NCBI GenBank assembly: GCA_964016885.1
Contig: OZ024750.1
Coordinates: forward strand, 40,920,001-40,984,000
DNA from: Eledone cirrhosa
Taxonomy: Eukaryota
Direction of reading: 5' to 3'
Length of the DNA stretch: 64,000 nt
Shown: piece after piece, positions 1 to 45,425 of the stretch
How positions within the stretch are numbered: position 1 is the stretch's first letter
Layout: every line of letters begins with the position of its first letter
Program-made: the position numbers and the translations under genes
The notes under the pieces: model-generated
Seen by the model: the letters and a program-made list of their open reading frames with translations, nothing else
The model's database searches: none
Told to the model about the DNA's origin: nothing

Positions 1-2330
1 ATAGTAGGACTAAGACTTGGTACTGTAGACAGTAGATAACACTACAAGATATATACCATTATAGTAGGACTAAGCCTTGGTACTATAGAAAGTAGATGAC
101 ACTACAAGATATATACCAATATGGTAGGACTAAGACTTGGTACTGTAGACAGTAGATGACACTACAAGATATATACCATTATAGTAGGACTAAGCCTTGG
201 TACTGTAGACAGTAGATAACACTACAAGATATATACCATTATAGTAGGACTAAGCCTTGGTACTATAGAAAGTAGATGACACTACAAGATATATACCAAT
301 ATGGTAGGACTAAGACTTGGTACTGTAGACAGTAGATAACACTACAAGATATATACCATTATAGTAGGACTAAGCCTTGGTACTGTAGACAGTAGATAAC
401 ACTACAATATATATACCAATATGGTAGGACTAAGACTTGGTACTGTAGACAGTAGATAACACTACAATATATATACCAATATGGTAGGACTAAGACCTGT
501 TATTATAGACAGTAGATAACACTACAAGATATATACCATTATGGTAGGACTAAGACTTGGTATTATAGACAGTAGATAACACTACAAGATATATACCAAT
601 ATGGTAGGACTAAGACTTGGTACTGTAGACAGTAGACAACACTACAAGATATATACCAATATGGTAGGACTAAGACTTGGTACTGTAGACAGTAGATAAC
701 ACTACAAGATATATACCAATATGGTAGGACTAAGACTTGGTACTGTAGACAGTAGACAACACTACAAGATATATACCAATATGGTAGGACTAAGACTTGG
801 TACTGTAGACACTAGATAACACTACAAGATATATACCAATATGGTAGGACTAAGACTTGGTACTGTAGACAGTAGATAACACTACAAGATATATACCATT
901 ATAGTAGGACTAAGACTTGGTACTGTAGACAGTAGATAACACTACAAGATATATACCAATATGGTAGGACTAAGACTTGGTACTGTAGACAGTAGATAAT
1001 ACTACAAGATATATACCATTATAGTAGGACTAAGACTTGGTACTGTAGACAGTAGATAACACTACAAGATATATACCAATATGGTAGGACTAAGACTTCG
1101 TACTGTAGACAGTAGATAACACTACAAGATATATACCATTATAGTAGGACTAAGACTTGGTACTATAGGAAGTAGATGACACTACAAGATATATACCAAT
1201 ATGGTAGGACTAAGACTTGGTACTGTAGACAGTAGATAACACTACAATATATATACCCTTATAGTAGGACTAAGACTTGGTACTGTAGACAGTAGATAAC
1301 ACTACAAGATATATACCAATATGGTAGGACTAAGACTTGGTACTGTAGACAGTAGATAACACTACAAGATATATACCAATATGGTAGGACTAAGACTTGG
1401 TACTATAGAAAGTAGATGACACTACAAGATATATACCAATATGGTAGGACTAAGACTTGGTACTGTAGACAGTAGATAACACTACAAGATATATACCCTT
1501 ATAGTAGGACTAAGACTTGGTACTGTAGACAGTAGATAACACTACAAGATATATACCATTATAGTAGGACTAAGCCTTGGTACTGTAGACAGTAGATAAC
1601 ACTACAAGATATATACCATTATAGTAGGACTAAGCCTTGGTACTATAGAAAGTAGATGACACTACAAGATATATACCAATATGGTAGGACTAAGACTTGG
1701 TACTGTAGACAGTAGATAACACTACAAGATATATACCATTATAGTAGGACTAAGCCTTGGTACTGTAGACAGTAGATAACACTACAATATATATACCAAT
1801 ATGGTAGGACTAAGACTTGGTACTGTAGACAGTAGATAACACTACAATATATATACCAATATGGTAGGACTAAGACTTGGTATTATAGACAGTAGATAAC
1901 ACTACAAGATATATACCAATATGGTAGGACTAAGACTTGGTACTGTAGACAGTAGATAACACTACAATATATATACCCTTATAGTAGGACTAAGACTTGG
2001 TACTGTAGACAGTAGATAACACTACAATATATATACCAATATGGTAGGACTAAGACTTGGTACTGTAGACAGTAGATAACACTACAATATATATACCCTT
2101 ATAGTAGGACTAAGACTTGGTACTGTAGACAGTAGATAACACTACAATATGTATACCCTTATAGTAGGACTAAGCCTTGGTACTGTAGACAGTAGATAAC
2201 ACTACAAGATATATACCAATATGGTAGGACTAAGACTTGGTACTGTAGACAGTAGATAACACTACAAGATATATACCAATATGGTAGGACTAAGACTTGG
2301 TACTGTAGACAGTAGACAACACTGCAATCA
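1..2330. repeat. 60-bp tandem minisatellite, about 39 copies, runs off the window start
   Basis: Unit ATGGTAGGACTAAGACTTGGTACTGTAGACAGTAGATAACACTACAAGATATATACCAAT repeats in register on every 60-nt line, with few substitutions. Confidence 0.98.
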
Positions 2331-2344
2331 TATGACTTACTCAT

Positions 2345-2483
2345 TGGTCATATATACAAATACATACATGCCTACACATACAAATATATACCTACATACA
2401 TACAAATATATAGCTATATACACACACAAACATACATTAGTCACATACATTACATACATACATACATACATAATACACACACG

Positions 2484-2529
<46 letters not shown>

Positions 2530-3375
2530 GAAATATACCCATATACATGTGCAGAGTAGCAGCATCTGTGGTGGTGGTAGTAGTAGTAGTAGTAGTTAGT
2601 TAACTAAGCAGAACCTAGTGAAACCTCCAGTATCTACCAGCACCATCCCAGCAACCAACATCAGTCAAACTCCAGTACCATGTATAGTCTTCTATAGTCT
2701 TCTATAGTCTTGAAATATTCTCTTAAAGGGTTCCACGTACTGTAAGCAGAGTTCTCTGTTGAAGCTCAGTGGTTCTCTCTATTTTCTCTTCTCTCACTCA
2801 CACGCACGCACACTCACACTCACACATATATGTACACATACATACACACACACACATGTATACACACTGACACATTCACGCACACACACATGTACACACA
2901 CTGACACATGTACACACACACACACACACATGTACACACACCCACATATATGTACACATACATACACACACACTGACACATACACACACACATGTACACA
3001 CACATACACATGTACACACACATATGTACACATACACACACATGTACACACACACGCACACACACATGTACACACACGCACACACATGTACACACACACA
3101 TATGTACACATACATACACCTGTACACACACACACATGTACATACTGATACACACACATGTACATACTGACACACATACACATACATACGCACGTATACA
3201 TATTGACACAATACATATATACACATAAACACACATACACACACACGCTGACACATTCACGCACACACTCTCACATACACAGATCGACACACACACACAT
3301 ATACTTACACATGCACATACACACACACATATACTTACACATGCACATACACACACATGCACATACACACACACT
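2345..3375. repeat. (CA)n/(TACA)n/(TA)n compound microsatellites
   Basis: Degenerate CA/TA dinucleotide tracts at 2345-2545 and 2790-3375. Confidence 0.9.
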
Positions 3376-3447
3376 CATTCTCTCTCGTTTGCTCTCCTTT
3401 TCTCTTTCTCTCTCTTTATTACTTTGGCTGTTCATACATAAAAGATA

Positions 3448-4621
3448 TCACCATCACCATCACCATCACAATCGCACCATAATCATCATCATCATCATCA
3501 TCGTCAGGAAATGATGATCATCATCGTTATCATCACTATCACCTTTATCATTCACCACCACCACTACCACCACAGCCACCACTACCACCACCTCCACCAC
3601 CACAACCACCACAGCCACCACCTCCTCCGCCACAGCCACCACTACCACCACCTCCTCCACCACAGCCACCACCACCACAACCACCACCTCCTCCACAGCC
3701 ACCACCTCCTCCACCACAGCCACCACCACAGCCACCACCACAGCCACCACCACTACCACCACAGCCACCACCACAGCCACCTCCACCACCATCACTACAC
3801 TGCCACCACCACCACTACCACCACCACATCCACCACCACCACCACTACCACAGCCACCACCACCACTACCACCTCCACCACAGCCACCACCACCTCCACC
3901 ACTACCACCACCTCCTCCACCACCATCACTACACTGCCACCACCACCTCCACTACCACCACCACCTCCACCACTACCACCACCACTACCACCACCTCCTC
4001 CACCACTACCACCACCTCCACCACCACTACCACCACCACCACCATCACTACACCCCCCACCACCACCATCACTACACCCCCCACCACCACCATCACTACA
4101 ACCAGAAAAAAAAAAGAATAAAGCAACAATACTACCACAACAAAATCAACATCATCACCATCACTACTACAACCACTACTGTGATGTTCCCATCAACACC
4201 AGCAGCAGCACCACAACAACCACAACAACATCATCATCATCATCATCACCACCACTACAGTTTTCCCATCAACAGCAGCACCACCACCACCACTACTACT
4301 ACCACAGCAGCAACAACAACAACACTACCACCACAAAAATCATCATAACCATCATCATCATCATCACCGCGACCACCACAACCACTGATACCATTTCCCT
4401 CCCCGCCGCCGCCTCCCCATCGCCACCACCACCACCACCACCACACCTACAACAAAAATCATCATCAGCAGCATCAGAATCTATATTATCACCATCACCA
4501 TCATCATCATCATCATTTCAGCACCACTGTATCATCATCACAATCTATATTATCACCCTTCCACCAAAACCATCATCATAATTATCACCAAATCAACACA
4601 GCTGTCTTGACCACAACTACT

Positions 4622-4683
<62 letters not shown>

Positions 4684-4960
4684 CACCACCACCACCACCA
4701 CCACCACCACCACTACTACTACTACTACTACCACTGCTACCACCACCACTACTACTACTACCACTACCACCACAACTACCACCACTACTACTACTACCAC
4801 CACCACCACCACTACTACTACCACAACTACTACTTCTACCACCAATACTACCACCACTACTACTACTACCACTACCACCACCACCACCAATACTACCACC
4901 ACTACCACCACCACCACCGCCAATACTACCACCACTGCCACCACTGCTGCTGCCACCTAC
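3448..4960. repeat. CAC/CAT/TAC trinucleotide low-complexity tract
   Basis: Continuous degenerate (CAC)n/(TAC)n; the ORFs here are poly-H/T/P/V artefacts. Confidence 0.92.
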
Positions 4961-4994
4961 TGAATAACATCATGATTATCAACATTTCAACACT

Positions 4995-6560
4995 ATCATC
5001 ACCATCACCATCACCACTGTGTAACCCCACCATCACCACTGTGTAACACCACTGTGTACCATCACCATCACCATTGTATACCATCACCATCACCACTGTG
5101 TAACACCATTGTATACCATCACCATCACCACTGTGTAACACCACTGTGTACCATCACCATCATCACTGTGTAACACCATTGTATACCATCACCATCACGT
5201 AACACCATTGTATACCATCACCATCACCACTGTGTAACACCACTGTGTACCATCACCATCACCACTGTGTAACACCATTGTGTACCATCACCATCACCAC
5301 TGTGTAACACCATTGTATACCATCACCACTGTGTAACACCACTGTGTACCATCACCATCACCACTGTGTAACACCACTGTGTACCATCACCATCACCACT
5401 GTGTAACACCACTGTGTACCATCACCATCACCACTGTGTAACACCATTGTATACCATCACCACTGTGTAACACCACTGTGTACCATCACCATCACCACTG
5501 TGTAACACCACTGTGTACCATCACCATCACCACTGTGTAACACCATTGTATACCATCACCATCACCACTGTGTAACACCATTGTATACCATCACCACTGT
5601 GTAACACCATTGTATACCATCACCACTGTGTAACACCACCATCACCACTGTGTAACACCACTATCACCACTGTGTAACACCACTGTGTACCATCACCATC
5701 ACCACTGTGTAACACCACCATCACCACTGTGTAACACCATTGTATACCATCACCACTGTGTAACACCACCATCACCACTGTGTAACACCACTGTGTACCA
5801 TCACCATCACCACTGTGTAACACCACCATCACCACTGTGTAACACCATTGTATACCATCACCATCACCACTGTGTAACACCATTGTATACCATCACCACT
5901 GTGTAACACGACCATCACCACTGTGTAACACCACTGTGTACCATCACCATCACCACTGTGTAACACCACCATCACCACTGTGTAACACCATTGTATACCA
6001 TCACCATCACCACTGTGTAACACCATTGTATACCATCACCACTGTGTAACACCACCATCACCACTGTGTAACACCACTGTGTACCATCACCATCACCACT
6101 GTGTAACACCACCATCACCACTGTGTAACACCATTGTATACCATCACCATCACCACTGTGTAACACCATTGTATACCATCACCACTGTGTAACACCACCA
6201 TCACCACTGTGTAACACCACTGTGTACCATCACCATCACCACTGTGTAACACCACCATCACCACTGTGTAACACCATTGTATACCATCACCATCACCACT
6301 GTGTAACACCATTGTATACCATCACCACTGTGTAACACCACCATCACCACTGTGTAACACCACTGTGTACCATCACCATCACCACTGTGTAACACCACCA
6401 TCACCACTGTGTAACACCATTGTATACCATCACCATCACCACTGTGTAACACCAATGTGTAACACCACTGTGTAACACCACCATCACCACTGTAACACTA
6501 CCACTGTGTAACACCACCACTGTGTAACACCACCACTGTGTAACACCATTGTATATCATC
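4995..6560. repeat. Minisatellite built on CACCATCACCACTGTGTAACACCA(T/C)TGT(A/G)TAC, with a 143-bp higher-order repeat
   Basis: Units directly visible; identical ORFs recur at 143-bp intervals (5829, 5972, 6115, 6258). Confidence 0.93.
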
Positions 6561-11263: not shown

Positions 11264-12073
11264 ATCATTAACATCCATCTTCCATGCTAGCATGGGTTTG
11301 GACGGGAATTTTCCCACTTGAGGCAAGATTGGTTGTCTTGCTCGTATAGGACTGTCTGGCGGGTTTTCTATGGCTGGATGCCCTTCCTAACACCAAGCAC
11401 GTTACAAGTGTGGACTGGGAGGTTTTTACCGTGTTACCTACATGGCCACATTACAGCGTGGACTGTGTGTTTTTTTGTCGTGACACCTACACGACCTCAT
11501 TTGTTTCGTACTGGATGTTGTGGTACCAACATAACTTTACATTGGAAGGGGTGGTGTGGATGGGGTGGGGGTAGTGGGACGGGGGTGTATTTTTGTTAAA
11601 AGTGCCTACTGACTAGGTTTCGCTTTGTACTTAGGCAAGGCGGGTCTTCTCTATTACTGTGTAGCGCCAAAGATCTCGGTTCAGTGACATTGTCTTCGAG
11701 AGGTGTGTGTGAGGTCGGAATTTATCAAGTCGTCCCAGGTTTTTCTGGGTCTGCCTACTCCGTGGCTACCATCTATTTTTATCGCCCTGCACTTTTTTAT
11801 ACAGTTGTCGTCTTTCATGCGCATCACGTAACCGTACCAACGTAGTCTTCTCTCGAGTAAACAGCATCTGATCCCTCTTATTCCTAATTTCTCCCTTAGT
11901 TCGTTTATGCTTTGCCGTTCACGTATATTACTATTACACATCCAACGGAGCATGCAAGCTTTGTTCCTCTCCAGTTTGCATCTCTCCAGTTTGCATATAT
12001 CCTCTGCACACAATGGCCAGGTCTCACTGCCATGCAGCATTGCTGTTCATATGCAGGCATCATACAGCCTGCC

Positions 12074-12169: not shown

Positions 12170-12505
12170 GGAGGCACATGGCTTAGTGGTTAGAGCATTG
12201 GCCTTGCAATTGAAAGGTTGTGAGTTCAATTCTCGGACCGGGTGATGTGTTGTTTCCTTGAGCAAGACACTTTATTTCACATTGCTCCAGTTTACTCAGC
12301 TGTAGAAATGAGATGATAGGGACAGGGGTCCCTATAATTCCACTGTAAAGTGGTCGTGGAGGTGCCACGGCAAAAAAGCACCCAGCACTCACTGTAAATG
12401 AGGTTGGTGTTAGGAAGGGCACCCAGCTGTAGAAATCAAGTCAAAATCGGTTCCCGTCCCACCCTTGCAAGCAGGGAAAAGCGGACGTAAAATGAAATGA
12501 ATGAT
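12170..12505 (+). mobile_element. tRNA-derived CORE-type SINE family 2, full length
   Basis: GGAGGCACATGGCTTAGTGGTTAGAGC head, GTTCAATTC B-box, CORE-like TCCTTGAGCAAGACACTT..CTGTAGAAATG, 3' GGTGTTAGGAAGGGCA..GGACGTAAAATGA tail. Confidence 0.88.
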
Positions 12506-12562: not shown

Positions 12563-12719
12563 AAAAGGAACGATCGACTTTTTTATGCCCTGGTGGGAAA
12601 TAAAAAAAAAATTATCTATATATATATATCTATCTATATATCTATATATCTATATCTATCTATCTAATCTATCTATATATATATCTATATATCTATATAT
12701 ATATATATATATATATCTA

Positions 12720-12752
<33 letters not shown>

Positions 12753-13177
12753 ATATATATATCTATATCTATCTATATATATAATCTATATATCTATATA
12801 TATCTCTATATATATATAGATATATATATATAGATATATATATATAGATATATATAGATATAGATATAGATATATATAGATATATATATATATATATATA
12901 GATATATATATATATAGATATATATATATATAGATATATATATATATATAGATATATATATATATAGATATATATATATATATATAGATATATATATATA
13001 TATATAGATATATATATATATATAGATATATAGATATATATATATATAGATATATATATATATATAGATATATAGATATATATATATAGATATAGATATA
13101 TAGATATATATATATAGATATATATATATAGATATAGATATATAGATATATATATATAGATATATATATAGATATAT

Positions 13178-13216
<39 letters not shown>

Positions 13217-13239
13217 TATATATATATATATATATATAT

Positions 13240-13318
<79 letters not shown>

Positions 13319-13574
13319 TATATATAGAGAGAGAGATATATATAGATATATATATATATATATAGAGAGATATATATAGATATATATATATATATATAGA
13401 GAGATATATATAGATATATAGATTATATATATAGAGAGATATATATAGATATATAGATTATATATATAGAGAGATATATATAGATATATAGATTATATAT
13501 ATAGATAGATATAGATATATATATAGATAGATAGATATATATATAGATAGATAGATATATATATATATAGATAG

Positions 13575-13605
<31 letters not shown>

Positions 13606-13841
13606 TATATAGATATATAGATAGATATATATATATAGATAATTTTCTTTTTATTTGCCACCAGGGCATAAAAAAGTGGGACAAGTACAATGGGGGGAGT
13701 TTACATAACAAGGCGTCCTCACTAAGGAGGAGGCAATAACAAAATATAAAATTAAAATAAAATATAACAAAATAAATTTTATAACAAAATCCTCAATAGG
13801 GAGGAGGCGCCTTGGGGGGTCGCACCCCCCCCCCCCCCGAA

Positions 13842-13873
<32 letters not shown>

Positions 13874-14049
13874 ACATATAGATATATATATATAGATATA
13901 TAGAACGGACGTAAAACGGTGATGATGATGATGATGATGATATAGATATATATATATATAGATATATATATATATGTTTATAGATATATATAGATAGATA
14001 TATATAGATATATAGATATATATAGATATATATATATAGATATATATAG

Positions 14050-14083
<34 letters not shown>

Positions 14084-14190
14084 CTATATATATAGATATA
14101 TATAGATATAGATATATATATATATATAGATATATATATAGATACATATATATATATAGATATATATATATAGATAGATAGATAGATATA
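12506..14190. repeat. (TA)n/(TAGA)n microsatellite containing LINE 3'-end fragments
   Basis: Long TA/TAGA tract interrupted at 12565-12614, 13640-13842 and 13903-13940. Confidence 0.92.
13640..13842 (-). mobile_element. 5'-truncated 3'-UTR copy of the Tx1-like LINE
   Basis: Closely matches but is not identical to 14192-14385 (TTTGCCAC..GGGCAT..AAAGTGGGACAAGTACA..GGCGTCCTCA..GCGCCTTGGGGGTCGCAC). Confidence 0.9.
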
Positions 14191-14454
14191 TGTTTCTTTT
14201 ATTTGCCACTAGGGCATCAAAAGTGGGACAAGTACAAAGGGGGGAGTTTACACAAAAAGGCGTCCTCAATAAGGAGGAGGCAATAACAAAATATAAAAAT
14301 AAAATGAGATATAACAAAAAATAAAATTTTTAACAAAATCCTCAATAGAGAGGAAGCGCCTTGGGGGGTCGCACACACCCCCGAAAAAAGTGTGCAACCC
14401 TTCTCCTCAGGAGCACAGAGAAGGGGTGCTCCCTTGGTCTTTCATCTTCCTCAC

Positions 14455-17400
14455 CTATAGTCTGATGTAGAGTGAAGGCCCATTCACACGGGCCATTCTC
14501 GCCACTTTCACCCATCTTTCATAGAAACGGCTGGGGTGCAGCACCTCTCTCTCCATCCTGATCCTTCTTCCGAAATGATATCGGAAGAAACGGACCAGTT
14601 GTTGGCCAGAGAGAAAGGTGCCCGACCTCAGTCCTTTCAGACGCGTCCACCATACAACCTCTTTCGCCATGGCTATTACGCACAGAAACACCGCCTCTGC
14701 TTCATCTTTGAAGGGGGGAGGCGGCTTGATCATTACAATAGACTCGGTGGTCAACCGGATCGGTTCCACCCTTGACAGCAGTTGTTCGACATAGCCCCAC
14801 AGATCGGCTACGCCCGAGCAGTGTACCAATGCGTGTGCAACGGTTTCCTCGTCGCACACGCATCTGGGACAGATCTTTTTGGCGGGGTCCCTACCCGGGC
14901 GCCCGTGTCTGTAGAGCCTTTCTCGAACGGGTAAAGCCCCTCGGTAGCACTGCCAGGCCAGGGACTTCTGGAAGTTGTCCATAGGTCCCGGGCTGAATGT
15001 CCTACCGAACAGGCTGGCCAGTTCGTCCTCCTCCATGTCTAGGGCTTCTCCGAGGGCGTCGTCGCACCTGCTGCGCACCAGCCCTCTATAGAATGTTGCG
15101 GTGGAGTCTCCACTGATAACCGGATCCGCCTGCCAGAGGGCGGTGAGCGCCTGGGCACACTCAGTGTGCCAGGCGCCCAGTTTTCTCGGTCTTTGCTTGA
15201 CCCAGGATTGCAGCTCGGTGAGTGAGACGAGTCTGGGAAAGGTTCGTCTCACAAACGAGGCCCACACCGGTTGTCCGGTGAGGAATACGTAGAGGTGCCG
15301 TAGCCTTAATGCGTGTTTACGCATCATTAGCCACGGCATCCCCAGCCCTCCTTTCGAAGGGTGTTGACAGCAGATGGATCTCCTCACCATAGGAGCCCGC
15401 CTCTTCCAAAGGAATTGGAAGAGCGCGCGCTCCATCTTGGTGAGGGTTTCCCTTGGGCAGGGCACTACGGTCAGGCGGTAGTAGATGACGGACGCTATGT
15501 AGGTGTTCGCCACCTCCGCCCGACCTTTCAGGGATAGTTTGCAACTGGCCCACTTCTGGGTCAGTGCAAACACCCTGTTCGTAACCTCCGCCCAGTTTTT
15601 CTCCACCTGGAGGTCCGGTCCGAACCAGACCCCGAGCAACTTCACCGGGCCCTCCGTCCAGCGTCCGACGACGCTATCGGAGGGCATCGGTCTGCCCCTC
15701 CACGTGCCGAGTTGCAAACCGATCGACTTGTCCCGGTTCAGCTTAGCCCCTGTGAACTTTTCGTACTCCTCCAGTAAGGTGCCAACCGCCTCGATTTCGG
15801 AGGCCGTCGACACCATTACTGTCACGTCATCGGCGTAGGCCGACACCGCTTTCCGCAATCCCGGTTCCATAGGGATGCCCTGCAACAACTCCAACTTCCG
15901 CAGTAGTGGCTCGAGAGTCAACACATACAGAAGGGAGGAGAGGGGGCACCCTTGTCGGATGGACTGCGCGATTTTGAACGGCTCCGAGAGGTAGCCGTTC
16001 ACCTTGACCCTAGAGCAGATGCGGCTGCTGTGCATAGCAGTGATCCAGCCCCTGAAAACGGGTCCGAAGCCTGCCGCCGCTAGCACCGCATCCAGGTAAC
16101 CATGGTCGACCCTATCGAACGCCTTAGATTGATCCAAGTTGATCAGAGCCCCACCAAAGCCGGGTTCGTTCCCAACCCTCTCTATGATGTATCGCATGAG
16201 GTGGAGGTTGTCATGGATGGACCTGGACGGGATAGCGCATGTCTGCGCATCTCCCACCAGGTTGCCCACGACAAGCGCCAACCTCTTTGCTAGCACCTTG
16301 GCCAAAATCTGTAACTCTGTATTTAGCAGTGTTATGGGCCTGAAGTTACTTATTTCGTCCCCCTTGTTCTCGTCCTTCCTCACTAGCGTGACTACGCCCT
16401 TGGTCACAGTACAGGGAATTCTCCCGTTCTGTTGCCAGTTGCAGTAGACCGCCTCGAGGAGATCGGGGAACAAGTCCGGCATAGCTAGATATAATTCGTA
16501 AGGAAGACCATCGAGACCCGGGGATTTGCGTTTGCCGCATTGGCTCAGCACGTCCTCTATCTCAGCGGCCGAAATCGGCTCCTCGCAGGACTTCGCCTCC
16601 CTGTCTGAGAGGCGCGGCAGGCCGTCGAGGTATGGACCGAAGTCCACGTTCCCAACCGGCTCCCCGCCCCTCCCGAACAGTCGGGCAAAGTGCCTTTGAA
16701 AGGCCTCACACATCTGCTTAGGCTCAAGAATCGCCCGTCCATCCAGGTCTCGCAAAGACCGGATGGTGGATTTAGTTCCACTGTTGGCCTCTGTCACGCG
16801 GGCCCAGCCAACAGCTTTGGTCCCCTCGTTCCCTAGAGCACGTATTTTACTTCGGACAACGCAGCCTTCGTGCTTCGCGTCGAAAAACTGGCTCAAAGCC
16901 GTTCTCGACGCTAGCACTCTGGCCACGTCGCCGCTTCTAATTGCCTCTTCTACTCTATCTATTAGCTCCCTTTCCTTCCTATTCCTATCCGCAGCTAGAA
17001 CCTTACTAAATTCTATCGAGACTACTCTAATCTCTCTCTTTAGAGATACCCACCACCTGCTGTTGACGATCGCTCCAGTCAACCGTTCCTTAACTAACGT
17101 ACTAATCCGATTCCTGTAGGCTCTACTTGCCGGCAAGGACAAGTTGAGCTTCCAGTAACCGGGGCCCTGTCTATGAGTTCTGTCAAGGTTGACCATGCAG
17201 GTCACTAATTTGTGGTCTGAATAGCCAACAATGCGCATTTTTGGACAACTTAAAAAGTCCTTATCCTTAATTCTAACTAAGAACCTATCTAGGTACGACC
17301 TAGATGATCCGCTACGATTTGCCCAAGTCCAGGTTGGCGCAGTCGGAAAATCTAGTCGATATCTATCGGCCAGGTCAAATCGACCGATTATCCCTTTGAG

Positions 17401-17892
17401 GCTATTACACCCCTCTCTATCGGGGCAGGCCCCTACGTAGTCCCAGCGTGCATCTAGGATACCATTCCAGTCCCCCACTAATAGCAAGGAGCGGGACGTC
17501 CCTAGAAAAGTCTCCAGACGATGGAAGAAGTCCGGCCGCATTGACCCGAAAGGGCCGTAGGCGGCTACCAACCTAAACGCTCCGCCTTTACCACTGCCAA
17601 GGTCCAGAACCACTAGTCGACCCTCCGGGTCCAAATGTACCATCTGTGTTGCGAGACCCAGATGTTTTTGCAGCAGAACGACAACTCCACCCCCACCTCC
17701 GGGCTGACAGAGAGATGCGTGCATCTCAAAGTCATCAAAGGTGGGGGCCAGCTGTCGCACGTTGCTGATCCGGGCCTCGCAAATAACCATCACATCTATA
17801 CGTTGTGACCTGAGGTCATTTAGAAGCATTGCTTGCTTCCAAGTTGAGCCCAGGCCACGCGCATTTAAACAGCCTACTCTTAGCATAGCCAT
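14455..17892 (-). CDS. LINE ORF2: APE endonuclease, reverse transcriptase and C-terminal zinc-binding domain
   Basis: APE motifs LNARGL, ICE, GDWN, SYLDRFL, SDH; GPGYWKLN; RT motifs KSPGLDG, FRPITLLN, DQSKAFDRV, RQGCPLS, YADD; GGLG; CPRC..H..C. First ATG at 17892 (the ORF track starts at a GTG at 17916). Confidence 0.96.
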   Translation of the reverse strand: MAMLRVGCLNARGLGSTWKQAMLLNDLRSQRIDVMVICEARISNVRQLAPTFDDFEMHASLCQPGGGGGVVVLLQKHLGLATQMVHLDPEGRLVVLDLGSGKGGAFRLVAAYGPFGSMRPDFFHRLETFLGTSRSLLLVGDWNGILDARWDYVGACPDREGCNSLKGIIGRFDLADRYRLDFPTAPTWTWANRSGSSRSYLDRFLVRIKDKDFLSCPKMRIVGYSDHKLVTCMVNLDRTHRQGPGYWKLNLSLPASRAYRNRISTLVKERLTGAIVNSRWWVSLKREIRVVSIEFSKVLAADRNRKERELIDRVEEAIRSGDVARVLASRTALSQFFDAKHEGCVVRSKIRALGNEGTKAVGWARVTEANSGTKSTIRSLRDLDGRAILEPKQMCEAFQRHFARLFGRGGEPVGNVDFGPYLDGLPRLSDREAKSCEEPISAAEIEDVLSQCGKRKSPGLDGLPYELYLAMPDLFPDLLEAVYCNWQQNGRIPCTVTKGVVTLVRKDENKGDEISNFRPITLLNTELQILAKVLAKRLALVVGNLVGDAQTCAIPSRSIHDNLHLMRYIIERVGNEPGFGGALINLDQSKAFDRVDHGYLDAVLAAAGFGPVFRGWITAMHSSRICSRVKVNGYLSEPFKIAQSIRQGCPLSSLLYVLTLEPLLRKLELLQGIPMEPGLRKAVSAYADDVTVMVSTASEIEAVGTLLEEYEKFTGAKLNRDKSIGLQLGTWRGRPMPSDSVVGRWTEGPVKLLGVWFGPDLQVEKNWAEVTNRVFALTQKWASCKLSLKGRAEVANTYIASVIYYRLTVVPCPRETLTKMERALFQFLWKRRAPMVRRSICCQHPSKGGLGMPWLMMRKHALRLRHLYVFLTGQPVWASFVRRTFPRLVSLTELQSWVKQRPRKLGAWHTECAQALTALWQADPVISGDSTATFYRGLVRSRCDDALGEALDMEEDELASLFGRTFSPGPMDNFQKSLAWQCYRGALPVRERLYRHGRPGRDPAKKICPRCVCDEETVAHALVHCSGVADLWGYVEQLLSRVEPIRLTTESIVMIKPPPPFKDEAEAVFLCVIAMAKEVVWWTRLKGLRSGTFLSGQQLVRFFRYHFGRRIRMEREVLHPSRFYERWVKVARMARVNGPSLYIRL

Positions 17893-17916
17893 GTTGGTGG
17901 TGAAGAGAAAAGGCAC

Positions 17917-19704
17917 TTACCTCTCTGCGTCCCGGGTATCGGGCTGCACAATTTCCATTAGGGTGGGGGATGGGTTGTTGGGTGGGGTGGTGGTTTGTGG
18001 AAGTGTGGGGGCATCAGTGTGTTGTGTGGTTGGGGAGCTTGGAGTTGTGAGGGTGTTTGGGGAGGGGGTGGGATAGTTTTTTAGGAGGACGCGGTTAATG
18101 GGCCCGACGCAGGGGGGACCCACGTCCTCTTTAAAATTGTTTTTTAAAGTTTTATAGGTGTCCTGTGGGGCCTTAATCATTTTGAGGTGGGGGAAATCCC
18201 CTGCCTGGGTGAAGTTAGGCCCTTGTGTTTTTATTAGATTGTTGTTGTACACAATGTTTAACAGTTTTTTGTTTCTTGTATTTATGTATGTGTATGCATG
18301 TTTTTGTTTTTGTGTGGTGTTTTTTGTTTGCTGTTGTGAGCTCTTTTGTGTTGGTGTCAGTGTTATGTTTTGGGGAGGGGTTTTTTTCATTTGTGTGTCT
18401 GAGGTGTGTTTTCTTTTTTTTCTTTTGATTGTGTGGAAGTGCTCCTCCTCGTCTGACGACGAACTAGGGTCATCTTCCGCGTTGGAGGGGAGGGGTATAT
18501 TTTCGGGTTGTGTTTGCGGTACGGGTGTTTTGGAAATTGTTTTTGTTTTTTGAGTGGAGGGGATGGGTTGGACATTGTTTTGTTTTGGTTTGAGCTGTGG
18601 TGGTTGTTTTTGTAGTGGTAGTTGTGGTGATTGTGTTGGTTGTGCAGTTGTTGGTGGTGTAGGCAGGATTGGGGTTTTCTTATTAAGTTGGGGACATACA
18701 GCCCTCAGGTGACCTCTGGTTCCGCAGAGGTAACACGAGGGCCGTCTACCCTCAACGGTAATGTTGATGAAGGTTAGATCATCCAGTATGACGCGTTCAG
18801 GGATCTGGGCGATCCTTTCGGGCCTCATTTGAACTACAAGTTCGAGGCTCGTTCCACTGAACGCGTCACCCGATGCCTTTCCCATGGACACCAGCATGTC
18901 ATCCTCCAGGTCCAGAAAACCTGTCAAAACCCACCATATGTCCATAATCGGCAGGATGGTGTGGATTTTTATTTTTTGTGTTCTTCTACCCATGTACGTA
19001 GGGTAGAAGGTGTATGCGGTGGATGTGATTGGTTTGATGGACAGTTTCACTGCTGTGTCCCTGTCCTTCATGAGAATGGATAGACTCCCGTAGAGTCTAT
19101 CCTTCTGAATGAAGGTGATGTCCTTCATGACGTCTTTTAAAACCAGCTCTATCTCGCTCTGTGATGGTTGAGCTGGTTTTTTACTTTTGTTCGAGATTGT
19201 CCTAAACATGACCGTGTTTAGGAGTCTCTGGCTTTTTAGTTCCGGGGGGGAATGGATTGTGAATGAACCATTTTCCCCGTACACTATATATTTTTTCGCA
19301 TCCGCCAGTAGCTCCTTCGCTTTTGTTATATCTACTGGCAGATAGTCGAGGGTTTTCCTTGTCGTCTCGGCGAAGGAGAAATTTTGTTTGTTTGTGTTGT
19401 TGTTGTCGTTGGTGGTGTTGTTGTTATCATTGTTGTTGTTGTCACCGTTATTGGTCTTGTTGTTGTTATTGTTATTGTTATTGGTGTTGTTATCGTCCGT
19501 CGCATTGTTGTTGTTGTTGCTGTTGCTGCTGGTTCTTTGGGTTGTTGCCATGGCAACGTCAAGTTGTCGGTTAACAGGTGGAGAGAATTCTTCCTCTGGA
19601 TGACCTATCTTCTTGACCTCTGCTACTGTGACAGTGGCAGGGGGAAGCTGTAAGTTCATCTTCCCCTTTCCTCCTTCGAATTTTGGTGAAGAAGCTTCAG
19701 CCAT
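17917..19704 (-). CDS. LINE ORF1: Gag-like nucleic-acid-binding protein with a CCHC zinc knuckle
   Basis: 595 aa; [14 protein letters not shown] (CX2CX4HX4C), Asn-rich N-terminus, P/T/Q-rich and basic (KRKKRK) C-terminal half; directly upstream of ORF2. Confidence 0.9.
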
Positions 19705-19735
19705 TTAAAAAAATATTGACTTTTCAACAAGAAAG

Positions 19736-21661
<1,926 letters not shown>

Positions 21662-35847: not shown

Positions 35848-38385
35848 ATGGTCCTTCCAATATTTGTTGTAGAGAGAGAGAGATAGTGGGAGGAAGTACG
35901 GGGAACAGCATATATAGTCCTTCTATAGCCATACAATATTTGTTGTAGAGAGAGAGAGAGAGATAGTGGGAGGAAGTACAGGGAACAGCATATATAGTCC
36001 TTCTATAGCCATACAATATTTGTTGTAGAGAGAGAGAGATAGTGGGAGGAAGTACGGGGAACAGCATATATAGTCCTTCTATAGCCATACAATAGTTGTT
36101 GTAGAGAGAGAGAGATAGTGGGAGGAAGTACAGGGAACAGCATATATAGTCCTTCTATATCCATACAATATTTGTTGTAGAGAGAGAGAGATAGTGGGAG
36201 GAAGTACGGGGAACAGCATATATAGTCATTCTATAGCCATACAATATTTGTTGTAGAGAGAGAGAGAGAGATAGTGGGAGGAAGTACAGGGAACAGCATA
36301 TATAGTCCTTCTATAGCCATACAATATTTGTTGTAGAGAGAGAGAGATAGTGGGAGGAAGTACGGGGAACAGCATATATAGTCCTTCTATAGCCATACAA
36401 TAGTTGTTGTAGAGAGAGAGAGATAGTGGGAGGAAGTACAGGGAACAGCATATATAGTCCTTCTATAGCCATACAATATTTGTTGTAGAGAGAGAGAGAT
36501 AGTGGGAGGAAGTACGGGGAACAGCATATATAGTCCTTCTATAGCCATACAATATTTGTTGTAGAGAGAGAGAGAGAGATAGTGGGAGGAAGTACAGGGA
36601 ACAGCATATATAGTCCTTCTATAGCCATACAATATTTGTTGTAGAGAGAGAGAGATAGTGGGAGGAAGTACAGGGAACAGCATATATAGTCCTTCTATAG
36701 CCATACAATAGTTGTTGTAGAGAGAGAGAGATAGTGGGAGGAAGTACAGGGAACAGCATATATAGTCCTTCTATAGCCATACAATATTTGTTGTAGAGAG
36801 AGAGAGATAGTGGGAGGAAGTACAGGGAACAGCATATATAGTCCTTCTATAGCCATACAATATTTGTTGTAGAGAGAGAGAGATAGTGGGAGGAAGTACA
36901 GGGAACAGCATATATAGTCCTTCTATAGCCATACAATATTTGTTGTAGAGAGAGAGAGATAGTGGGAGGAAGTACGGGGAACAGCATATATAGTCCTTCT
37001 ATAGCCATACAATATTTGTTGTAGAGAGAGAGAGAGAGTGGGAGGAAGTACGGGGAACAGCATATATAGTCCTTCTATAGCCATACAATATTTGTTGTAG
37101 AGAGAGAGAGATAGTGGGAGGAAGTACGGGGAACAGCATATATAGTCCTTCTATAGCCATACAATATTTGTTGTAGAGAGAGAGAGAGAGATAGTGGGAG
37201 GAAGTACAGGGAACAGCATATATAGTCCTTCTATAGCCATACAATAGTTGTTGTAGAGAGAGAGAGAGAGATAGGTAGGGAGGAAGTACGGGGAACAGCA
37301 TATATAGTCCTTCTATAGCCATACAATATTTGTTGTAGAGAGAGAGAGATAGTGGGAGGAAGTACAGGGAACAGCATATATAGTCCTTCTATAGCCATAC
37401 AATATTTGTTGTAGAGAGAGAGAGAGAGATAGTGGGAGGAAGTACGGGGAACAGCATATATAGTCCTTCTATAGCCATACAATATTTGTTGTAGAGAGAG
37501 AGAGATAGTGGGAGGAAGTACGGGGAACAGCATATATAGTCCTTCTATAGCCATACAATATTTGTTGTAGAGAGAGAGAGAGAGAGAGATAGTGGGAGGA
37601 AGTACGGGGAACAGCATATATAGTCCTTCTATAGCCATACAATATTTGTTGTAGAGAGAGAGAGATAGTGGGAGGAAGTACGGGGAACAGCATATATAGT
37701 CCTTCTATAGCCATACAATATTTGTTGTAGAGAGAGAGAGAGAGAGATAGTGGGAGGAAGTACGGGGAACAGCATATATAGTCCTTCTATAGCCATACAA
37801 TATTTGTTGTAGAGAGAGAGAGAGAGAGATAGTGGGAGGAAGTACGGGGAACAGCATATATAGTCCTTCTATAGCCATACAATATTTGTTGTAGAGAGAG
37901 AGAGAGAGAGATAGTGGGAGGAAGTACGGGGAACAGCATATATAGTCCTTCTATAGCCATACAATATTTGTTGTAGAGAGAGAGAGATAGTGGGAGGAAG
38001 TACGGGGAACAGCATATATAGTCCTTCTATAGCCATACAATATTTGTTGTAGAGAGAGAGAGAGAGAGATAGTGGGAGGAAGTACGGGGAAACAGCATAT
38101 ATAGTCCTTCTATAGCCATACAATATTTGTTGTAGAGAGAGAGATAGTGGGAGGAAGTACGGGGAACAGCATATATAGTCCTTCTATAGCCATACAATAG
38201 TTGTTGTAGAGAGAGAGAGATAGTGGGAGGAAGTACGGGGAACAGCATATATAGTCCTTCTATAGCCATACAATATTTGTTGTAGAGAGAGAGAGAGAGA
38301 TAGTGGGAGGAAGTACAGGGAACAGCATATATAGTCCTTCTATAGCCATACAATATTTGTTGTAGAGAGAGAGAGATAGTGGGAA
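35848..38385. repeat. ~76-82-bp minisatellite with an internal variable (AG)n
   Basis: Unit ATAGCCATACAATATTTGTTGT(AG)nATAGTGGGAGGAAGTAC(A/G)GGGAACAGCATATATAGTCCTTCT. Confidence 0.97.
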
Positions 38386-38477: not shown

Positions 38478-38928
38478 TAGCAGAATGGGATAACATCTAT
38501 ATTTCTGTAGCGGAATGGGATAACATCTATATTTCTGTAGCAGAATGGGATAACATCTATATTTCTGTAGCGGAATGGGATAACATCTATATTTCTGTAG
38601 CAGAATGGGATAACATCTATATTTCTGTAGCGGAATGGGATAACATCTATATTTCTGTAGCAGAATGGGATAACATCTATATTTCTGTAGCGGAATGGGA
38701 TAACATCTATATTTCTGTAGCAGAATGGGATAACATCCATATTTCTGTAGCGGAAATGGGATAACATCTATATTTCTGTAGCAGAATGGGATAACATCTA
38801 TATTTCTGTAGCGGAATGGGATAACATCTATATTTCTGTAGCAGAATGGGATAACATCTATATTTCTGTAGCAGAATGGGATAACATCTATATTTCTGTA
38901 GCGGAATGGGATAACATCCATATTTCTG
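38478..38928. repeat. 30-bp minisatellite
   Basis: C(A/G)GAATGGGATAACATCTATATTTCTGTAG, about 15 copies. Confidence 0.97.
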
Positions 38929-44391: not shown

Positions 44392-45425
44392 TCTCATTTA
44401 TTCCTGAGAGGGTTGTGGAGGGGCAGAGTTCTCAAACACTCTTTCCAGCAGATCCTTTCATAAGCAACCATTCTCAATTGATCTAGTTGGATCCCTAAAC
44501 AAGACCAACTGAGCTCATGAATTTTATCCAACCATCTTGCTCTAGATCTTCCCCTGGGTTTCCTGTTGTTGGTTAATTTTACCAGTAAAATCTGTCAAGT
44601 GATTCATTCCTGAGACATTCTAACCATATGTCTGTAATATTGGAGCTGTGATCTCTGAATTTGGAGAAGTAGCAGCTCTATCTGGAGCAACTCTCTCACC
44701 CCTGAGCTACACACTCTGTCTACTGACTCATTCCTGAGACATTCTAACCATATGTCTGTAATATTGGAGGTAGCAGCTCTACCTGGAGCAACTCTCTCAT
44801 CCCTGAGCTACACACTCTGTCAAGTGATTCATTCCTGAGACATTCTAACCATATGTCTGTAATATTGGAGCTGTCATCTCTGAATTTGGAGAAGTAGCAG
44901 CTCTATCTGGAGCAACTCTCTCACCCCTGAGCTACACACTCTGTCTACTGACTCATTCCTGAGACATTCTAACCATATGTCTGTAATATTGGAGGTAGCA
45001 GCTCTACCTGGAGCAACTCTCTCATCCCTGAGCTACACACTCTGTCAAGTGATTCATTCCTGAGACATTCTAACCATATGTCTGTAATATTGGAGCTGTC
45101 ATCTCTGAATTTGGAGAAGTAGCAGCTCTATCTGGAGCAACTCTCTCACCCCTGAGCTACACACTCTGTCTACTGACTCATTCCTGAGACATTCTAACCA
45201 TATGTCTGTAATATTGGAGGTAGCAGCTCTACCTGGAGCAACTCTCTCATCCCTGAGCTACACACTCTGTCAAGTGATTCATTCCTGAGACATTCTAACC
45301 ATATGTCTGTAATATTGGAGCTGTGATCTCTGAATTTGGAGAAGTAACAGCTCTACCTGGAGCAACTCTCTCATCCCTGAGCTACACACTCTGTCCAGTG
45401 ATTCATTCCTGAGACATGTCAAGTA
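44392..45425 (-). mobile_element. RTE (Expander-like) fragment with an internal 225-bp (124+101) tandem amplification
   Basis: Homologous to 41975-42335; CTGTCAAGTG recurs at 44592, 44817, 45042 and 45267. Confidence 0.82.

What the first reader, a model, noticed from the sequence alone, without database searches (positions are those of the whole stretch)
12565..19735. Intact Tx1-like LINE with apparent (TA)n/(TAGA)n target specificity
Seen: a complete two-ORF element with intact APE, YADD and zinc motifs is flanked at both ends by TA/TAGA repeats. Two more, non-identical 3' ends (13640-13842 on -, 12577-12614 on +) sit in the same tract, each running into TATCTATA-type repeats. Established: Tx1-group L1 elements are often sequence-specific, including for microsatellites. 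Inference: a potentially active microsatellite-specific retrotransposon that hit this tract repeatedly in both orientations, as a palindromic (TA)n target would allow.
Basis: partly seen in the sequence, partly recalled or inferred. Interest (0 to 1): 0.75.

Follow-up and report, generated by a model that had tools for sequence, protein, structure and literature searches.

The report
Octopod LINE targeting GATA repeats
A young jumping gene with about 2,000 copies in what is likely an octopus genome nearly always ends at the same letter of a GATA or TA repeat and faces one way along GATA repeats, likely because its own DNA-cutting enzyme picks that site; repeat-seeking jumping genes are already known, so this is a new example and not a new principle.

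Summary
(1) Both ORFs are open, yet this copy lacks about 180 bp of 5' UTR. (2) The main target is polar (TATC)n/(GATA)n, not palindromic (TA)n. Of 1,959 exact 3' ends in the genome, 1,671 run into TATC in fixed register and 245 into TAT[A/G/T]. TATC outnumbers GATA 388:2 in 3' flanks, although (TA)4 is about 100 times commoner than (TATC)2. (3) The + strand 3' end is most likely an inverted local duplicate of the second copy. The repeat is a genomic target, not a tail: it lies on both sides, duplications of 11-20 nt start at the TAT, and one public run holds an empty allele of another copy. The family is young: 19 of 26 full-length copies examined are at least 98% identical. Tx1 membership rests on architecture; no named Tx1 reference was available. 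Microsatellite-targeting Tx1 LINEs are known; I found no GATA target in ten paper searches, but could not check Repbase. This scan noted the same targeting before on other DNA.

The parts
14191..19734 (-). Main LINE copy, 5'-truncated by 180 bp, both ORFs open, no poly(A) tail
   Evidence: 99.7% identical over 5,542 bp to positions 181-5722 of full-length copy L061
19705..19734 (-). Remaining 30 bp of the about 210 bp 5' UTR
17917..19704 (-). ORF1, 595 aa: two predicted RRM-like domains (about aa 152-240 and 241-320) and one CCHC knuckle (aa 324-337), with low-complexity arms
   Evidence: model pLDDT 92; Foldseek best hits are tandem RRMs, E 5.6e-5; VIA-align Z 9.7, rmsd 2.4, 81-82 aligned to the La RRM; zf-CCHC E 0.049 and in 8 of 35 alignment members
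14455..17892 (-). ORF2, 1145 aa: APE endonuclease (aa 23-227), RT (aa 512-755), zf-RVT (aa 976-1032)
   Evidence: closest solved structure by sequence is human L1 ORF2p, E 7e-48, against R2 at 2e-19
14191..14454 (-). 3' UTR; ends in a small predicted hairpin and AATAAA, then runs straight into the target
19735..20430 (-). Upstream flank: mixed (TATC)/(TA) tract, TATC on the element's sense strand
13843..14190 (-). Downstream flank of the main copy and upstream flank of copy 2: mixed (TATC)/(TA) tract
13640..13842 (-). Copy 2: older, heavily 5'-truncated independent insertion of a sister subfamily, same orientation as the main copy
   Evidence: 90.1% identity over 192 bp; its flank shares only 3 nt of prefix with the main copy's flank
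12615..13639 (.). TA/TATC tract whose polarity flips near 12815 (C only to the left, G only to the right on the + strand): likely a fold-back
12577..12614 (+). Copy 3: 38-bp 3' end, most likely an inverted duplicate of copy 2's end and flank (or an assembly fold-back), not a third insertion
   Evidence: shares a 20-mer found 9 times in the genome, 2 of them here; 39 nt identical compound flank against at most 17 nt for 91 other ends

Best explanation
This is a 5'-truncated copy, with both genes open, of a young LINE family that sits at one position of (TATC)n/(GATA)n repeats in one orientation and less often in (TA)n, likely because its endonuclease nicks the GATA strand there and the nick primes reverse transcription. 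Shown: the fixed junction just before TAT(C), the strand polarity, the repeat on both sides, duplications of 11-20 nt at several sites and none at one, no poly(A), head-to-tail stacking, and one empty allele. Inferred from Tx1L and R2Ol work: the endonuclease sets the site, and the RNA reads a few bases into the donor's downstream TATC, which pair with the nicked strand so that priming skips any poly(A). Each insertion leaves TATC on both sides, so the site is hit again in the same direction. In this window two independent insertions face the same way, and the third end likely arose later by fold-back duplication of the AT-rich tract.
For: 3' junctions: 1,671 of 1,959 NN-TATC and 245 of 1,959 NN-TAT[A/G/T]; 1,286 with (TATC)2 on a core 4 nt shorter. 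Background in 20 evenly chosen 10-kb stretches: TATCTATC 75, TATATATA 7,490, so per site (TATC)2 is favoured several hundred-fold. 5' junctions: 279 of 364 full-length starts have TATC 1-3 nt upstream. Among the first 30 3' ends on contig C1, 29 had the 5' side in view: 19 with two or more TATC in 40 nt, 3 TA runs, 7 other; TATC:GATA 113:1; background 2.3% of 40-mers. Shared 5'/3' sequence starting at the TAT: 14 nt (L028), 16 (L064), 16 (L146), 11 and 20 (the two inner copies at L099-L101). Empty allele: one 582-bp contig of run X1 joins L147:4553 to 6242, the first T of the TATC. Diverged sister families end the same way in 14 of 16 listed ends; one is followed by TACC repeats and one has a changed end before TATC. 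Youth: 19 of 26 full-length copies at 98% identity or more, 10 of 26 with both ORFs open (picked from search hits, not at random).
Against: Specificity is not absolute: 43 of 1,959 ends fit neither class, and 7 of 29 5' flanks are not TATC or TA runs. The window's main copy itself starts with TATA before TATC. No biochemical or RNA data. The counts cover only the subfamily with this exact 26-nt end. The background rests on 200 kb and 75 clustered matches. The empty allele is a single contig, the letters between its two sides are marked 'not known', its shorter side (46 nt) lies in repeated DNA, and X1 may be the sample the genome was built from. Tx1 membership was not shown on a tree with named references. 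The fold-back could be an assembly error.
Confidence: 0.85

Rival explanations
1. One reading: the target is palindromic (TA)n, hit three times here in both orientations.
For: 245 of 1,959 ends start TAT[A/G/T], and 22 of 30 such flanks have no TATC in the first 40 nt, so (TA)n is a real minor target. The window tract is mostly TA.
Against: 85% of ends start with TATC although (TA)4 is 100 times commoner; TATC:GATA 388:2. The only opposite-facing end shares a rare variant and a 39-nt flank with copy 2 and lies across a polarity switch.
Confidence: 0.04
2. (TATC)n is the element's own 3' tail, as in RTE- or CR1-type LINEs, and insertion is loosely specific through RNA-DNA pairing alone.
For: No poly(A). 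3' microsatellite tails that steer the insertion site are described for RTE LINEs (PMC6007223, passages). L098/L155 has a long 3' (TATC)n with no TATC on its 5' side.
Against: TATC lies at the 5' junction of truncated copies too. At non-repeat sites the duplicated sequence begins right at the element's end with no added units. The empty allele of L147 already runs into the TATC.
Confidence: 0.07
3. Insertion is random and copies only survive, or accumulate passively, in microsatellites.
For: Passive accumulation is proposed for Drosophila Waldo-A/B (PMC3812793, passage). This genome is full of microsatellites.
Against: Selection cannot give single-base register and one-strand polarity in 98% of 1,959 mostly young ends.
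Confidence: 0.02

Closest known systems
Kibi (TC)n and Koshi (TTC)n of teleosts; crocodilian Tx1 families on (TTCC)n/(TTTC)n (PMC4494074, passages and section 15; PMC3812793, passages)
   Same: APE-type LINEs that insert into one strand of a short microsatellite; the family here far exceeds that paper's 20% criterion for target specificity.
   Different: The repeat is TATC/GATA with (TA)n as a minor target; the host is probably an octopod; relationship to Kibi/Koshi could not be tested.
Tx1L of Xenopus laevis (PMC1950540, passages)
   Same: Two-ORF APE element whose endonuclease alone nicks the expected site; the model for the mechanism proposed here.
   Different: Targets the transposon Tx1D, not a microsatellite. 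Its beta-B6/beta-B5 loop has eleven residues with an extended tip; here that stretch aligns to human L1 without an insertion.
Waldo (ACAY)n, Mino (AC)n, Dong (TAA)n (PMC3812793, passage)
   Same: Microsatellite-targeting non-LTR elements.
   Different: Other repeats; other clades (R1 and R4; recalled, not from a call).
Octopus vulgaris L1-Tx1 families (PMC13282606, passages)
   Same: 13 recently active L1-Tx1 families with 421 insertions are tabulated; this family or a relative may be among them.
   Different: The word 'target' does not occur in the main text; no target site is described. I did not open its supplement or repeat library.
R2Ol read-through priming (PMC6530143, passages)
   Same: Target-derived bases at the RNA 3' end raise insertion efficiency; a precedent for the tail-less junction proposed here.
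   Different: R2 clade, restriction-like endonuclease, rDNA target.

Membership tests
L1-group APE-type non-LTR retrotransposon | ORF2 with N-terminal APE, RT and C-terminal zinc motif, after an RNA-binding ORF1 | tested here: met
L1-group APE-type non-LTR retrotransposon | Variable 5' truncation, fixed 3' end, target-site duplications | tested here: met
Tx1 clade | RT groups with named Tx1 elements (Tx1L, Keno, Kibi, Koshi) | tested here: inconclusive
   No hit carried a Tx1 name. The quick tree of 51 rows, none dropped, groups the RT with an Argonauta protein and one unnamed protein (SH-aLRT 100) and leaves deep forks open. Repbase was not available.
Tx1 clade | Type I ORF1p (RRM plus CCHC knuckle), described as consistent with Tx1 in non-mammalian animals (PMC5203782, passages); also found in plant L1, so not exclusive | tested here: met
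   predicted tandem RRM-like folds and one CCHC
Microsatellite-targeting Tx1 families (Kibi/Koshi type) | More than 20% of flanks are one sequence type (criterion in PMC4494074) | tested here: met
   85% of 3' ends and 77% of full-length 5' ends
Microsatellite-targeting Tx1 families (Kibi/Koshi type) | Endonuclease nicks the target sequence-specifically | not testable with these tools
   needs a nicking assay
Vertebrate-type L1 | Type II ORF1p (Transposase_22) and a poly(A) tail | tested here: not met
   ORF1 carries a CCHC knuckle and two RRM-like folds; 1,916 of 1,959 ends go straight into TAT
RTE/CR1-type LINE with own 3' microsatellite tail | Repeat is added at the 3' end only | tested here: not met
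   repeat on both sides, no added units at resolved sites, present in the empty allele
Full-length, potentially active copy | Complete 5' UTR plus two open ORFs | tested here: not met
   window copy lacks the first 180 bp; other copies in the genome meet it

The most novel reading that the evidence does not exclude
The family does not just use GATA repeats but spreads them: full-length RNA would start inside the donor's upstream TATC units and carry them into (TA)n or near-miss sites, seeding new polar targets that are then hit again, so that the element helps build the genome's compound TA/GATA arrays. Hints: L151 sits in (TA)7 yet has about two TATC units at its 5' junction, and L186 has TATC units there beyond its target. 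Two odd 5' extensions each recur at only 2 loci, and L195 shows no such units.
Probability: 0.2. Interest if true: 0.65.

Novelty: new member of a known kind. Interest (0 to 1): 0.38.

Why it matters
It adds a GATA target to the short list of microsatellites used by APE-type LINEs. A 2013 review calls the mechanism of such targeting not well understood (PMC3812793). With about 2,000 near-identical ends, several hundred full-length starts, an empty allele and natural recombinants whose endonuclease region is about 11% diverged, the family is good material for testing how an APE domain reads a simple repeat. It also bears on where active LINEs land in cephalopod genomes. It is not a new principle.

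Tried and rejected
RNA-templated overwrite of the target at L147: suggested by its 5' and 3' flanks, rejected because the empty allele already runs into the TATC. Inherited 5' extensions as proof of transcription from the flank: each motif occurs at only 2 loci; too weak. Named Tx1 references: three protein searches, a cluster look-up and the Atlas gave none; NCBIfam gave only a group II RT below cut-off; the endonuclease alone hit only the L1/R1 chimera weakly (E 0.037). The careful tree did not finish, and no sister copy from the genome passed my length and identity filter for it. Expression: no RNA holder listed. Rfam: 6 matches, all below gathering score, on AT repeats or AT-rich DNA. The first 3'-end DNA search found only 43 candidates because common words are skipped; pattern counts replaced it. 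Precise ORF2-less copies: none among 9 internal jumps in the loci held. Literature: ten searches found no GATA/TATC-targeting LINE. Kojima and Fujiwara 2004 and Anzai 2005 are not held, the supplement of PMC4494074 could not be read, and its Fig. 3 list of targets is a picture; any of these, or Repbase, may already name this target. Sequence look-up among earlier findings returned nothing.

Full report
Observation. The window holds a two-ORF LINE on the minus strand: ORF1 17917-19704 (595 aa) and ORF2 14455-17892 (1145 aa), both open. ORF2 matches endonuclease (E 5e-8), RT (E 1e-25) and zf-RVT (E 4e-5, under the curated cut-off), keeps the NxxG, GDWN, SDH and YADD motifs, and is closest to human L1 ORF2p among solved structures. 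The core of ORF1 folds with pLDDT 92 into two RRM-like domains followed by one CCHC knuckle, the Type I layout that PMC5203782 (passages) links to Tx1 in non-mammalian animals. The best named relative is an Argonauta protein, 62% identical and in the same well-supported group, so the host is likely an octopod. The Tx1 label could not be tested against named references.

The copy is not complete. 25 of 29 other loci that match its 5' end continue for 177-185 bp to a common start. The window copy begins at base 181 of such a copy and is 99.7% identical to it. It is a recent, 5'-truncated insertion that likely lacks its promoter (inference from L1-type elements).

Family size and age. The genome has 1,959 exact matches to the last 26 bases and 364 to the full-length start. 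Of 26 full-length copies examined, taken from search hits, 19 are at least 98% identical to the window copy and 10 have both ORFs open. One contig of run X1 joins the two flanks of the copy at L147 and skips its 1,688 bp, an empty allele. It is a single contig, and X1 may be the genome's own sample.

Target. After the 26-mer and two variable bases, 1,671 ends read TATC and 245 read TAT[A/G/T]; 43 fit neither. 1,286 read (TATC)2 on a core 4 nt shorter. In 20 evenly chosen 10-kb stretches TATCTATC occurs 75 times and TATATATA 7,490 times, so per available site (TATC)2 is preferred several hundred-fold. The target is polar: TATC against GATA is 388:2 in the first 40 nt of 91 distinct 3' flanks and 113:1 in 29 5' flanks. 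279 of 364 full-length starts have TATC 1-3 nt upstream. (TA)n is a real minor target: 22 of 30 TAT[A/G/T] flanks have no TATC within 40 nt. Against a strict reading, 7 of 29 5' flanks in the unselected sample are neither TATC nor TA runs.

Target, not tail. The repeat lies at the 5' junction of truncated copies. At sites outside pure repeats the duplicated sequence starts at the TAT right after the element: 14 nt (L028), 16 (L064), 16 (L146), 11 and 20 (stacked copies at L099-L101). In the empty allele at L147 the left flank runs directly into the TATC, so that insertion made no duplication and added no units. No poly(A) follows the terminal AATAAA. Copies stack head to tail with each other and with sister families of 71-85% identity; 14 of 16 listed sister ends run into TATC in the same way.

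The window tract. Copy 2 (13640-13842, minus) is 90% identical to the main copy, has its own flank and is an independent, older insertion in the same orientation. Copy 3 (12577-12614, plus) is most likely not an insertion. It shares with copy 2 a 20-mer that occurs 9 times in 3 Gb, twice here. The two flanks are identical for 39 nt of a compound pattern, against at most 17 nt for 91 other ends. A 20-nt repeat variant occurs once on the left arm, three times on the right arm and in no other locus held. The tract switches from C-only to G-only near 12815.

Mechanism. Shown: junction register, polarity, duplications, stacking, youth, one empty allele. Inferred: the endonuclease nicks the GATA strand just before the TAT, as Tx1L endonuclease nicks its own target (PMC1950540, passages). 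The RNA likely reads a few bases into the donor's downstream TATC, which pair with the freed strand, as target bases do for R2Ol (PMC6530143, passages); this would explain the missing poly(A). SART1Bm needs only three repeats (PMC7265360, abstract), in line with the short targets seen here.

Novelty. Microsatellite-targeting Tx1 elements are known on (TC)n, (TTC)n, (TTCC)n and (TTTC)n (PMC4494074, passages and section 15; PMC3812793, passages). Active L1-Tx1 families are tabulated for Octopus vulgaris without targets (PMC13282606, passages), and L1-Tx1 is listed as expanded in coleoids (PMC8967140, passages). Ten searches found no GATA target, but the 2004 survey, one supplement and Repbase could not be seen. 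Earlier notes of this scan report the same targeting on other DNA; my reading was set before I saw them, and they are not independent support. Verdict: a new member of a known kind, interest 0.38.

Noticed in passing
window 17905-17925 and 14445-14465 (-): A splice-donor-like AG|GTAAGT overlaps the ORF1 stop, and the ORF2 stop TAG is followed by GTGAGG, so ORF2 looks like an intron (lead from earlier notes). No precise ORF2-less copy among 9 internal jumps in the loci held.
   Followed up: partly
L071, L141 (also L072, L151): Mosaic full-length copies: 5' UTR and ORF1 about 67-81%, endonuclease region about 89-91%, RT region 98-99% identical to L061 (for L071 and L141). Natural ORF1 plus endonuclease swaps; L071 keeps both ORFs open.
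   Followed up: partly
L076 (= L027), near the locus end: A short derivative in which the first 176 bp of the 5' UTR join directly to the 3' UTR; one locus, possibly a non-autonomous form.
   Followed up: no
L006/L007, L039, L143: Inverted or rearranged pieces next to copies, such as a 5' UTR piece facing the other way or an internal block out of order.
   Followed up: no
window 13904-13941 and 12340-12503 (+): Short stretches ending in CGGACGTAAAA plus (TGA)n or TGAAA repeats; they look like SINE 3' tails (recalled, not tested). One lies inside the tract between the main copy and copy 2.
   Followed up: no
window 11681-12040 (-): 119-aa frame that looks like the C-terminal remnant of another LINE (recalled resemblance to RTE type); no Pfam match.
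   Followed up: partly
L117-L119, L090, L146, L186: Copies inserted at TAT sites inside minisatellites; L117-L119 lie in one array.
   Followed up: partly
window 4-2327, 35858-38384, 38478-38928, 44591-45417: Homogeneous tandem arrays with 60-, 76-, 30- and 225-bp units.
   Followed up: no
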